Positions 1,591 through 2,829 of a DNA stretch of 64,000 nucleotides are shown here, in pieces. Made by a program: the position numbers and the translations under genes. This DNA comes from Escherichia phage EC.P1. The first letter of the stretch is position 1, and each line of letters begins with the position of its first letter. The notes beneath the pieces are model-generated. The model was not told the DNA's origin and did not search any database. It saw only the letters and a program-made list of their open reading frames with translations. The stretch lies in sequence record PQ657772.1; one strand, given 5' to 3'.

Positions 1591-2829
1591 TTATTTTTTA
1601 CTGTACCATTGCATTTCACGGATATCTAATAGTACCTTCGTAGCCAACTTTATGTTTGGTCGCTTCGGTAGATGGGTCTTATGATACGCCACATTTCGGA
1701 TGTAGTCAACCTTTTCGTTGAAATAATCCATAACTTCTTGATACAACCACTTCCCGTTACGAATGTCCATCAACATAGCAGCATCCGGTCGGTGAACTTG
1801 GATGATACCAGTTTCAAGTGCTTCCTGTGCTGTATTCAGCAGCCTGACTGTATGCATTGCGTGTTTACAATCATAACCGTGGTGTGATTCAAGAATAGCA
1901 CGTTTGGCATTACGATTCTGCTTCCATTTGTGATAACTCTTACGGTTCTCACTATTTTCTTTGTATTCTTTTTCATTGAATTTTACAATGAGTTCAGGAC
2001 GAACTTTCAATTCTTCTGTAGTACGTTCTTTGTTGAAGTAACGTAGTGAACCATCAGCATTCACTGTACTTTCATTCGGGTTGATAATTACCCCAAAGAT
2101 GTTTTCACCGTAATGGATTAGTTCATATCCAGAATTGTAATTCAATAAATTGAAATCACGATCTAATACTTTATCAGTACTATAATTATGTACTAAACGT
2201 ACAAAATGATATTGTTTCAATGCTTGTGTTGAAACTAATTGTAATGAAGTATCACGCATGTATTTTTCAAAATCAATTTTTGTAGCATTGAATGGGTGAA
2301 GATTGGATTTATTCAAACGGTCAACCAAATACTGCGGGAATGTATCATACATCCATGAAAGTACTTCGTCAACTGGATGTTCTTCTAAAATTTCATTTAG
2401 TTTACGTTCAGCAATTCGTTCCTTATCGAGCCAGCCGTGGTGATTAGACATACGCTTAACCTGATTGTATGCATATCCACTGTATGAGTGTGCAATCTTT
2501 GAACTCAATAATTGCTGATTGAATGAGCGTAGATAGTCATAGATTTCAGTACTTTCTACGATGTGTTCCGGTTTAACCCATAGTGATTCAAGAATGTTTG
2601 GGTTAGCTTCAGTATACAGACTTAAGTACTGATTGATTTCATAAAATTTAGTATCTTCTTCAGAAGTATCTGAAACTTCCTTAACATTAAAAAAAGGAGT
2701 TAGGATATATTCTTTGTTTGCAAGGAAGATACCACGATAATCTGTATCACTTTCTGGTGTGCTTGTGCCATACGCCTGTGAACCTGCTAAGTGTTTCACA
2801 ATAGTTTGTTCTAGAAAATTGTTTTTCAT
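1591..2829 (-). CDS. Pol-beta superfamily nucleotidyltransferase (MNT/RlaP-like N-terminal domain)
   Basis: 412 aa; N-terminal GSQAYGTSTPESDTDYRG = G-S-x9-D-x-D nucleotidyltransferase signature; long C-terminal extension of unknown function. Confidence 0.55.
   Translation of the reverse strand: MKNNFLEQTIVKHLAGSQAYGTSTPESDTDYRGIFLANKEYILTPFFNVKEVSDTSEEDTKFYEINQYLSLYTEANPNILESLWVKPEHIVESTEIYDYLRSFNQQLLSSKIAHSYSGYAYNQVKRMSNHHGWLDKERIAERKLNEILEEHPVDEVLSWMYDTFPQYLVDRLNKSNLHPFNATKIDFEKYMRDTSLQLVSTQALKQYHFVRLVHNYSTDKVLDRDFNLLNYNSGYELIHYGENIFGVIINPNESTVNADGSLRYFNKERTTEELKVRPELIVKFNEKEYKENSENRKSYHKWKQNRNAKRAILESHHGYDCKHAMHTVRLLNTAQEALETGIIQVHRPDAAMLMDIRNGKWLYQEVMDYFNEKVDYIRNVAYHKTHLPKRPNIKLATKVLLDIREMQWYSKK

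What the first reader, a model, noticed from the sequence alone, without database searches (positions are those of the whole stretch)
1591..2829. Large Pol-beta-type nucleotidyltransferase with a 300-aa uncharacterised C-terminal region
Seen in sequence: the N-terminal G-S-x9-D-x-D signature (GSQAYGTSTPESDTDYRG) matches minimal nucleotidyltransferases. Established knowledge: this fold includes antibiotic nucleotidyltransferases, CCA-adding enzymes, cGAS/DncV-like signalling enzymes and the RNA-ligase-associated nucleotidyltransferases described in RNA-repair systems. Because the phage also encodes Pnk and Rnl1, an RNA end-modifying role is plausible; a nucleotide-signalling or anti-signalling role is the alternative.
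Basis: partly seen in the sequence, partly recalled or inferred. Interest (0 to 1): 0.5.

Follow-up and report, generated by a model that had tools for sequence, protein, structure and literature searches.

The report
Phage RlaP-type RNA-repair nucleotidyltransferase with insert
This jumbo-phage gene is a real but fairly ordinary member of the known RlaP family of enzymes, which add one or two nucleotides to damaged RNA ends; its only unexplained part is a 170-residue inserted module.

Summary
The ORF (1591-2829, minus strand, 412 aa) and its N-terminal motif are real; the spacing is GS-x10-DxD, not x9. The window is a PBECO4-like (Asteriusvirus-type) E. coli jumbo phage. Identical proteins are already deposited as "nucleotidyltransferase" with PF10127.

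Catalytic residues G16, S17, D28, D30 and D59 are conserved in at least 97% of 124 divergent relatives. No CD-NTase, CBASS or other defence-model similarity was found.

The window also encodes Pnkp, Rnl1 and a PTH2-like protein. In other phages this RlaP clade sits next to a CCA-adding enzyme (6 of 14 lineages) or near Rnl1.

Most likely function: adding nucleotides to RNA 3'-OH ends during tRNA repair. This is inferred from a 2025 preprint on bacterial RlaPs and is untested for any phage RlaP. It is a new member of a known kind, of modest interest.

The parts
1591..2829 (-). Complete gene for a 412-aa RlaP-family (PF10127) nucleotidyltransferase, stop codon included
   Evidence: ORF. Pfam RlaP at E=4.5e-17. 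PHROG 388 at E=4e-75. Proteins 100% identical are annotated 'nucleotidyltransferase'.
2422..2829 (-). N-terminal Pol-beta-type NTase domain (aa 1-136), including the long helix 112-150 that leads out of it
   Evidence: Pfam match aa 14-131 to profile positions 25-144 of 249. hhalign to canonical RlaPs over aa 8-135. Strand and helix order in the AF2 model.
2740..2784 (-). Catalytic signature G16-S17-x10-D28-x-D30
   Evidence: Invariant in 27 of 27 aligned relatives and in 120 of 124 representatives at no more than 50% identity; the other rows are gaps or one substitution.
2653..2655 (-). D59, the inferred third metal-binding carboxylate, at the start of strand 60-64
   Evidence: D in 111 and E in 11 of 124 representatives. 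Strand position comes from DSSP on the model. The catalytic role is inferred from the Pol-beta fold, not measured.
2215..2421 (-). Helical insert (aa 137-205) specific to the jumbo-phage sub-clade
   Evidence: Absent from the 340-370 aa homologs in alignment A1. Only 10 of 124 representatives have at least 40 residues here. Modelled with pLDDT around 90.
1915..2214 (-). Beta-rich module plus following helix (aa 206-305). This is the second part of the insertion relative to canonical RlaP and is shared by most of the phage-type clade.
1594..1914 (-). Canonical RlaP C-terminal helical domain (aa 306-412). It is basic (the aa 286-412 segment has pI 9.6, net +8).
   Evidence: hhalign aligns aa ~308-405 to the C-terminal halves of canonical RlaPs whose Pfam match runs to profile position 249 of 249. 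BLASTP to T2 NrdC.11 residues 231-298 gives E=3e-5. Charge. R306, N307, R310, E314, D320, K322, H326 and R329 are conserved in at least 119 of 124.
1852..1878 (-). Invariant motif G318-Y-D-C-K-H-A-M-H326 in the C-terminal domain
   Evidence: D320 in 122, K322 in 124 and H326 in 122 of 124. Homologs P0121, P0124 and P0127 carry an intein inserted exactly between D320 and residue 321.
38409..39341 (-). Polynucleotide kinase-phosphatase (T4 PseT type), an inferred pathway partner
   Evidence: Pfam HAD_PNKP at E=1.5e-43 plus AAA_33 at E=1.2e-12.
40164..41306 (-). RNA ligase 1 (T4 RnlA type), an inferred pathway partner
   Evidence: Pfam RNA_lig_T4_1 at E=5.6e-14 plus T4_Rnl1_C at E=2.6e-16. 35% identity to T4 rnlA.
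33348..33767 (-). 139-aa PTH2-like protein, from the family that sits between the CCA-adding enzyme and RlaP in other phages; a possible pathway partner
   Evidence: ORF. tblastn from PVP-SE1 gp162 and the viral-contig ORFs gives E from 1e-6 to 2e-16. Pfam PTH2 at E=1.2e-4, 22.7 bits against a cutoff of 23.

Best explanation
The gene encodes a phage-type member of the RlaP family (RNA-ligase-associating Pol-beta nucleotidyltransferase, PF10127).

Inferred mechanism: the N-terminal NTase domain uses G16-S17 and the carboxylates D28, D30 and D59 to bind two divalent metals and an NTP. The basic C-terminal helical domain forms the floor of a cleft that holds an RNA 3'-OH end. The enzyme then adds one or two untemplated nucleotides to that end.

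In the infected cell it would act as part of the phage's tRNA-salvage toolkit. That toolkit comprises Pnkp, Rnl1 and a PTH2-like hydrolase in this window, and a CCA-adding enzyme about 12 kb away in near-identical genomes. The enzyme would replace nucleotides that host anticodon nucleases or other tRNases remove in addition to cutting, so that Rnl1 can reseal a full-length tRNA or the CCA enzyme can finish the 3' end.

Shown here: family membership, domain architecture, conserved active-site residues, and genomic associations.

Inferred: the RNA 3'-end-adding activity, taken from bacterial RlaPs in a preprint; the tRNA substrate; and the role of the ~170-aa insertion.
For: Family and catalytic residues:
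- Pfam RlaP scores 63 bits against a cutoff of 23. PHROG 388 matches over the full length.
- G16, S17, D28, D30 and D59, and the C-terminal residues W302, R306, N307, R310, E314, D320, K322, H326 and R329, are conserved in 119-124 of 124 representatives at no more than 50% identity.

Architecture:
- Both ends align to canonical short RlaPs. The D. gobiensis RlaP lies inside a Hen1-RlaP-RlaP-Pnkp operon (hhalign 99.4%, E=1.8e-21). A 253-aa B. thuringiensis plasmid RlaP gives 99.8%, E=1.3e-27.
- T2/T4 NrdC.11, named as the T4 RlaP in PMC12776372, aligns at 97.2%.
- The AF2 model has pLDDT 90.3 and shows an NTase domain plus a helical bundle. The nearest solved folds have the same NTase-plus-helical-domain layout: HalB, KNTase, LinB and AadA.
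- The C-terminal domain is basic (pI 9.6), as described for the RNA-binding cleft of PfRlaP.

Published biochemistry and surveys:
- PfRlaP and PaRlaP add 1-2 NMP to RNA 3'-OH, prefer Mn2+ and cleaved-tRNA mimics, and restore aminoacylation of a tRNA missing one nucleotide when combined with T4 Rnl1 (PMC12776372).
- RlaP is reported as the most prevalent repair NTase in jumbo phages, with a distribution that mirrors RNA ligases (PMC7824862).

Genomic context:
- Pnkp and Rnl1 are in this window. A CCA-adding enzyme is in the near-identical phage WPEC3.
- PVP-SE1 (Vequintavirinae) also has RlaP, CCA-adding enzyme and Rnl1.
- Among 80 viral contigs, a CCA-adding enzyme lies within 1 kb in 6 of 14 lineages. 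In several the order is CCA enzyme, PTH2-like gene, RlaP. Rnl1 lies 2.5-3.5 kb away in 4 contigs and Pnkp 3-8 kb away in 2.
- Some homologs are fused to an RNase_T/DEDD 3'-5' exonuclease, which fits nucleic-acid 3'-end chemistry.
Against: - No phage RlaP has been assayed. The only biochemistry is one preprint on two Pseudomonas enzymes from a different sequence cluster.
- In this phage the gene is 36-38 kb from Pnkp and Rnl1 and about 12 kb from the CCA enzyme. Its immediate neighbours are unknown-function ORFs, an ACP-like protein and spanins. Here the link is genome-level co-occurrence only.
- In 80 bacterial loci of this clade (cyanobacteria, Myxococcota, Planctomycetota) there was no Rnl1 or Pnkp hit within 6 kb and no recurrent RNA-repair neighbour.
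- The Pfam model matches only the N-terminal half directly.
- The ~170-aa insertion has no known fold and is mildly acidic, so it is not an obvious RNA-binding add-on.
- The PfRlaP crystal structure was not in the PDB copy searched.
Confidence: 0.62

Rival explanations
1. Same enzyme chemistry, different target. This phage-type RlaP would work at the tRNA 3' acceptor end rather than in the anticodon loop. After a PTH2-like hydrolase strips the peptide, it would rebuild nucleotides lost beyond the CCA (for example the discriminator base), and the CCA-adding enzyme would then finish the end. No RNA ligase would be needed.
For: The most lineage-diverse neighbour of this clade in viral contigs is a class II CCA-adding enzyme, found in 6 of 14 lineages within 1 kb on the same strand. 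In L144, L156 and L165 the genes abut in the order CCA enzyme, PTH2-like gene, RlaP. PVP-SE1 has gp159, gp162 and gp166 within 4 kb. The window itself encodes the PTH2-like protein. Canonical ligase-linked RlaPs lack the ~170-aa insertion that this clade carries.
Against: In this phage the three genes are dispersed by roughly 12 kb and 30 kb. Rnl1 is also near RlaP in four contigs of the largest lineage. The PTH2 assignment is only at threshold: 22.7 bits against 23, and the top PDB profile hit has E=0.37. PfRlaP preferred the 5' half of a cleaved tRNA over the 3' end of the 3' half. There is no biochemical evidence either way for phage enzymes.
Confidence: 0.2
2. A nucleotide-signal-making or signal-mimicking enzyme. 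It would be either a cGAS/DncV-like cyclic-oligonucleotide synthase or a HalB-like oligo-dA synthase, used by the phage to manipulate or blunt host signalling defences (for example by keeping a Hailong HalA channel closed).
Against: The similarity to HalB is at fold level only (14-17% identity, TM about 0.19-0.33) and is no better than to KNTase, LinB or AadA. No PADLOC defence model matches. There is no SMODS/CD-NTase Pfam hit, and CD-NTase structures score E>0.5. Sequence-wise the protein is firmly RlaP at both ends. The gene contexts are tRNA-related, not signalling-related.
Confidence: 0.05
3. A nucleotidylyltransferase that acts on a small molecule or a protein. Examples are aminoglycoside or lincosamide NTases of the KNTase/LinB/AadA type, and AMPylators such as MntA, DrrA or GlnE.
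Against: All matches are weak, and no Pfam or NCBIfam model for these families hits. Bacterial RlaPs did not label E. coli proteins or DNA. The C-terminal domain has no family-conserved HEPN Rx4-6H motif. A phage has no obvious need for an antibiotic NTase.
Confidence: 0.05
4. A catalytically dead or purely structural relic, with no enzymatic role.
For: None positive.
Against: All catalytic and cleft residues are conserved across hundreds of divergent homologs. Inteins target the conserved GYD|[CT]KH motif, as is typical of functionally constrained sites. The gene is intact and translationally coupled to its upstream neighbour.
Confidence: 0.03

Closest known systems
Bacterial RlaP (PF10127): P. 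fluorescens and P. aeruginosa RlaP (preprint PMC12776372), and the RlaP pair in the Deinococcus gobiensis Hen1-RlaP-RlaP-Pnkp operon
   Same: Same Pfam family. Same GS...DxD...D active site. Same two-domain logic of an NTase domain plus a basic C-terminal helical domain. hhalign probability is 99.4% over both domains. The expected chemistry, adding 1-2 NMP to an RNA 3'-OH, is taken from these enzymes.
   Different: The window protein carries a ~170-aa insertion (aa ~137-305) between the two domains that canonical RlaPs lack. It is not in an operon with an RNA ligase, RtcB, Hen1 or Pnkp; those genes are 36-38 kb away. Its activity is untested.
T4/T2 NrdC.11 (the T-even phage RlaP)
   Same: It is phage-encoded, in a genome that also has Rnl1 and PseT but is not adjacent to them. 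[quoted passage not shown] It also has extra sequence between the two domains.
   Different: It is 336 aa rather than 412 aa. Its middle region aligns only at noise confidence, so homology of the inserts is not shown. It is also functionally uncharacterised.
PHROG 388 / Vequintavirinae gp166-type nucleotidyltransferases (e.g. Salmonella phage PVP-SE1 gp166)
   Same: 35% identity over 99% of the length, including the beta-rich module and the C-terminal domain. The genomes also encode Rnl1, a CCA-adding enzyme and the PTH2-like protein.
   Different: They lack the helical segment aa 137-205 and are about 350 aa long. There the gene lies within 4 kb of the CCA enzyme and the PTH2-like gene, whereas here these genes are dispersed.
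Nearest solved structures: Hailong HalB (9dbh), kanamycin NTase ANT(4') (1kny), LinB (3jyy)
   Same: A Pol-beta NTase domain followed by a helical (HEPN/KNTase_C-like) bundle.
Class II CCA-adding enzyme (PolyA_pol, PF01743)
   Same: A template-independent Pol-beta-superfamily NTase that repairs tRNA 3' ends. It is encoded by the same phage lineage and is often adjacent to RlaP in other phages.
   Different: A different family with different domain architecture (head, RNA-binding and HD domains). The window protein has no match to it.

Membership tests
RlaP (Pfam PF10127) | Sequence match to the family profile above the curated gathering score | tested here: met
   63 bits against a cutoff of 23, E=4.5e-17, aa 14-131 matched to profile positions 25-144 of 249. 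All listed homologs that cover most of the query carry PF10127.
RlaP (Pfam PF10127) | Pol-beta NTase catalytic signature: G[GS], then DxD, plus a third carboxylate (three conserved Asp in PfRlaP) | tested here: met
   G16, S17, D28, D30 and D59 are invariant in A1. They are present in 120, 120, 120, 120 and 111 (plus 11 E) of 124 representatives.
RlaP (Pfam PF10127) | C-terminal helical domain homologous to the second half of the family profile | tested here: met
   The direct Pfam match stops at profile position 144. However, hhalign aligns aa ~308-405 to the C-terminal halves of two RlaPs whose own Pfam matches run to position 249 of 249.
RlaP (Pfam PF10127) | The last helix packs back on the NTase domain, and a cleft forms between the domains (PfRlaP crystal structure) | not testable with these tools
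PfRlaP is absent from the PDB copies searched.
RlaP (Pfam PF10127) | Gene neighbourhood with an RNA ligase or RNA-repair operon (the origin of the family name) | tested here: inconclusive
   Not operonic here: Rnl1 and Pnkp are 36-38 kb away. Rnl1 lies 2.5-3.5 kb away in 4 viral contigs, and Pnkp 3-8 kb away in 2. No such neighbour was found in 80 bacterial loci. Genome-level co-occurrence holds in three phage lineages.
RlaP (Pfam PF10127) | Adds 1-2 NMP to an RNA 3'-OH; Mn2+ preferred; DNA and proteins are not substrates | not testable with these tools
   Known only for PfRlaP and PaRlaP (PMC12776372).
CD-NTase / cGAS-DncV-like signalling enzymes | Sequence or fold match to CD-NTase (SMODS) models or CBASS defence models | tested here: not met
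   No such Pfam hit at E<=1. No PADLOC hit at E<=1. The best CD-NTase structures score E=0.58-2.4 with probability at most 0.13.
Hailong HalB-type oligo-dA synthase | Close structural or sequence similarity to HalB, and a partner HalA channel gene | tested here: inconclusive
Class II CCA-adding enzyme | PolyA_pol head domain (PF01743) with RNA-binding and HD domains | tested here: not met
   No match in the window protein. A separate CCA enzyme exists in this phage lineage, and neighbours of RlaP in other phages show the true architecture.
MNT-HEPN toxin-antitoxin / HEPN RNase | Conserved Rx4-6H motif in the helical domain | tested here: not met

The most novel reading that the evidence does not exclude
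The ~170-aa module inserted between the NTase and helical domains has a confident model, no PDB fold match, and is present in most of the phage-type clade. It could be a new domain that retargets RlaP chemistry to the tRNA acceptor end. Together with the CCA-adding enzyme and a divergent PTH2-like hydrolase, which are its adjacent neighbours in six phage lineages, it would form a ligase-independent pathway for salvaging tRNA 3' ends. That pathway would counter host tRNases that trim past the CCA.
Probability: 0.15. Interest if true: 0.55.

Novelty: new member of a known kind. Interest (0 to 1): 0.3.

Why it matters
If the assignment holds, this phage carries a fuller tRNA-repair kit than the classic T4 pair. 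It would have end healing (Pnkp), sealing (Rnl1), nucleotide replacement (RlaP), CCA rebuilding and possibly peptidyl-tRNA hydrolysis. That points to host tRNases that remove nucleotides rather than just cut.

The practical value of this analysis is modest:
- It replaces "NTase with 300 unknown residues" by a defined architecture: RlaP plus a ~170-aa insertion.
- It shows that the signalling alternative is unsupported.
- It flags a recurrent gene cassette in other phages (CCA enzyme, PTH2-like gene, RlaP), which gives a testable hint about substrate.

No phage RlaP, T4 NrdC.11 included, was found to have been assayed, so an experiment would fill a real gap. The outcome would extend a known family rather than reveal a new kind of system.

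Tried and rejected
- Sequence searches of the PDB, with the single protein and with the profile A1, found nothing meaningful. The PfRlaP crystal structure is not in the copy searched.
- Foldseek against afdb50 was unavailable, so the full model and the insert were compared only with PDB libraries.
- NCBIfam gave only noise. PADLOC gave nothing.
- The search for homologous proteins with the beta-module alone (aa 200-300) returned no hits, although full-length identical proteins exist. This reflects a limit of the word index and is uninformative.
- The 80 bacterial loci gave no recurrent RNA-repair neighbour. The recurrent clusters were lineage-specific synteny, which by visual inspection of the sequences looked like housekeeping genes (for example adenylosuccinate lyase, a sigma factor) and TPR or kinase proteins. 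RtcB and Rnl2 were not used as explicit BLAST queries; only unsupervised clustering would have caught them.
- HEPN RNase reading of the C-terminal bundle: rejected, because there is no conserved Rx4-6H motif.
- CD-NTase reading: rejected, because there is no sequence or fold support.
- The GTG start at 1619 for the downstream ACP-like ORF, which would overlap the NTase gene: rejected in favour of the ATG at 1580, which is preceded by GAGGA and agrees with the PHROG match and the WPEC3 annotation.
- The promoter and terminator scan gave no enrichment over shuffles. The only suggestive site is a terminator-like hairpin with a TTGACG-17-TATAAT match at 4893-4854 (minus strand), upstream of the gene block.
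Full report
**Observation**

The window holds a 412-aa ORF at exactly 1591-2829 on the minus strand. Its ATG (2829-2827) overlaps the TGA of the upstream ORF 2826-3227 as ATGA. The next gene most likely starts at the ATG at 1580, behind a GAGGA ribosome-binding site. The gene therefore sits in a tightly packed minus-strand block.

The quoted peptide is at aa 16-33, and the true spacing is GS-x10-DxD. The short motif alone is not distinctive: a loose version occurs 6 times in the window's open frames. 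The profile evidence, however, is strong:
- Pfam PF10127 'RlaP' at E=4.5e-17, 63 bits against a cutoff of 23.
- PHROG 388 'nucleotidyltransferase' at E=4e-75 over aa 3-411.

**Origin of the window**

The first 6 kb are 99.6-99.7% identical to the Escherichia jumbo phages fEgEco12, WPEC3 and Ecwhy_1, and about 83% identical to PBECO4. Proteins 100% identical to this one are already deposited as 'nucleotidyltransferase' or 'DNA polymerase beta superfamily protein' with PF10127.

**Architecture**

An alignment of 27 relatives (A1) and of 124 representatives at no more than 50% identity divides the protein into four parts.

1. An NTase domain, aa 1-136. G16, S17, D28 and D30 are each present in 120 of 124 representatives. 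D59 is D in 111 and E in 11 of 124.
2. A helical segment, aa 137-205. It is present in only 10 of 124 representatives, essentially the jumbo-phage sub-clade.
3. A beta-rich module plus a helix, aa 206-305. 100 of 124 representatives have at least 60 residues across aa 206-300.
4. A helical domain, aa ~306-412. W302, R306, N307, R310, E314, D320, K322, H326 and R329 are each conserved in at least 119 of 124.

The Pfam model aligns only to part (1). Two canonical short RlaPs, whose own Pfam matches run to the end of the profile, align by hhalign to both ends of the window protein, with aa ~137-305 left as an insertion:
- A Deinococcus gobiensis plasmid protein that lies in a Hen1-RlaP-RlaP-Pnkp operon: 99.4% probability, E=1.8e-21.
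- A 253-aa Bacillus thuringiensis plasmid protein: 99.8% probability, E=1.3e-27.

T2 NrdC.11 is the homolog of the T4 protein that the preprint PMC12776372 names as the T4 RlaP. It aligns at both ends as well, but its own middle region aligns only at noise confidence.

**Structure**

The AlphaFold2 model of the whole protein is confident (pLDDT 90.3, pTM 0.79).

The C-terminal domain is basic (pI 9.6, net +8). Both parts of the insertion are mildly acidic.

**What is known about the family**

Burroughs and Aravind named RlaP for its linkage to RNA ligases, as summarised.

Iyer et al. 2021 (PMC7824862) reported it as the most prevalent repair NTase in jumbo phages. They found that its distribution mirrors RNA ligases and predicted that it restores nucleotides lost to RloC-type nucleases.

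A December 2025 preprint (PMC12776372) reported the following for two Pseudomonas RlaPs:
- They add one or two NMP (or dNMP) to RNA 3'-OH ends.
- They prefer Mn2+ and a cleaved-tRNA mimic.
- They do not act on DNA or proteins.
- Together with T4 Rnl1 they partly restore aminoacylation of a tRNA that is missing one nucleotide.

No paper found reports an assay of any phage RlaP; a search for nrdC.11 returned only genome papers.

**Context in this phage**

Pfam confirms a T4-type Pnkp (38409-39341) and Rnl1 (40164-41306) on the same strand, 36-38 kb away. The near-identical WPEC3 genome has a CCA-adding enzyme about 12 kb from the RlaP gene.

The immediate neighbours are as follows:
- three tandem paralogs of unknown function;
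- a 133-aa unknown ORF;
- an ACP-like ORF;
- an Rz-like spanin, followed by a small ORF with an N-terminal lipoprotein-like signal.

ARAGORN finds no tRNA genes in the window.

**Context elsewhere**

PVP-SE1 (Vequintavirinae) has its RlaP homolog gp166 within 4 kb of CCA enzyme gp159, and also encodes Rnl1 gp105.

Among 80 IMG/VR loci, which fall into 14 lineages at 60% identity:
- A class II CCA-adding enzyme (PolyA_pol, RNA-binding and HD domains) lies within 1 kb on the same strand in six lineages.
- In L144, L156 and L165 the order is CCA enzyme, a 150-180 aa ORF, then RlaP, with abutting ends.
- Rnl1 lies 2.5-3.5 kb downstream of RlaP in four contigs of the largest lineage. Pnkp lies 3-8 kb away in two contigs.

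The intervening ORF family includes PVP-SE1 gp162 (E=2e-29) and a window ORF at 33348-33767. It scores as PTH2 (peptidyl-tRNA hydrolase) right at threshold: 22.7 bits against 23, E=1.2e-4. The top PDB profile hit is Pth2 2zv3, at a non-significant E=0.37.

By contrast, 80 bacterial loci of this clade showed no Rnl1 or Pnkp hit and no recurrent RNA-repair neighbour within 6 kb.

Two further hints come from homolog architectures:
- Some homologs are fused to an RNase_T/DEDD 3'-5' exonuclease.
- Several carry an intein inserted exactly between D320 and residue 321 of the invariant GYD|[CT]KHAMH motif, which marks that motif as functionally constrained.

**Interpretation**

Family membership is secure, at about 0.95.

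The most likely function is untemplated addition of nucleotides to RNA 3'-OH ends, as part of phage tRNA salvage. My confidence in this is about 0.6, because the activity is extrapolated from two bacterial enzymes in one preprint.

Two points remain open. One is whether the target is the anticodon-loop break (the ligase-coupled, canonical model) or the acceptor end (suggested by the CCA enzyme and PTH2-like adjacency). The other is the role of the insertion.

Signalling, antibiotic-modifying, protein-modifying and inactive-protein readings have little or no support.

**Verdict**

The gene is a new member of an already described family in an already described phage group. The only unexplained element is a ~170-aa inserted module of unknown fold. 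Interest is modest (0.3).

Noticed in passing
Homologs P0121, P0124, P0127 (the equivalent site in the window is nt 1867-1872, aa D320/C321): RlaP homologs of about 680-760 aa carry an intein inserted exactly between D320 and the following C/T of the invariant GYD|[CT]KHAMH motif. P0124 has a LAGLIDADG_3 hit. The inserts start with Cys and end with GN before the +1 C/T. The window gene has no intein.
   Followed up: partly
Homologs P0149 and P0190: RlaP homologs of about 660-675 aa are fused at the C-terminus to an RNase_T/DEDD 3'-5' exonuclease domain (PF00929, E=9e-23 and 2e-17). This pairs an 'add' activity with a 'trim' activity for 3' ends.
   Followed up: no
window 33348-33767 (-); L144:9441-9986, L156:9084-9569, L165:9549-9998, L133:7295-7771, L003:6628-7116: This is a small protein family with conserved Y..N.Y..GI.AGIQ..H and LNGG motifs. 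It scores as peptidyl-tRNA hydrolase PTH2 right at the Pfam threshold. In several phages it sits between a CCA-adding enzyme and the RlaP gene. In this window it is 30 kb from RlaP.
   Followed up: partly
window 3230-3739, 3736-4257, 4264-4830 (all -): Three tandem paralogous ORFs (169, 173 and 188 aa; PHROGs 18641 and 7868, unknown function) lie directly upstream of the NTase gene block. A terminator-like hairpin overlapping a TTGACG-17-TATAAT promoter-like site at 4893-4854 precedes them.
   Followed up: no
window 1164-1580 (-): The ORF immediately downstream of the NTase gene matches PHROG 18343. Its C-terminal ~60 aa match acyl-carrier-protein PHROGs (E=3e-8). Related records annotate it as an acyl or D-alanyl carrier protein. 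Its likely start is the ATG at 1580, not the GTG at 1619.
   Followed up: partly
L088 (Deinococcus gobiensis plasmid P2) 3376-9020: This RNA-repair operon reads Hen1, RlaP (304 aa), RlaP (264 aa), Pnkp, with two different RlaP paralogs side by side. An AbiEi/AbiEii toxin-antitoxin pair follows it.
   Followed up: no
L165:9980-11807: In this viral contig the RlaP match spans 1.8 kb and is split into three consecutive ORFs (173, 211 and 225 aa). This suggests an interrupted gene (intron, mobile insertion or frameshifts).
   Followed up: no
window ~23,000-26,500 (inferred from WPEC3 records 295351-298429; not verified in the window): The WPEC3 annotation lists several Sir2 or Sir2-like fragments, Nudix hydrolases and a PhoH-like fragment in the region between the NTase gene and the Pnkp/Rnl1 genes. 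These are NAD+/nucleotide-related functions of the kind discussed for jumbo-phage counter-defence.
   Followed up: no
window 4901-7630 (-): A 909-aa ORF of unknown function (PHROG 3573, E about 1e-230) lies upstream of the block. Its homologs recur next to RlaP in the related jumbo-phage contigs, which reflects synteny by descent.
   Followed up: no
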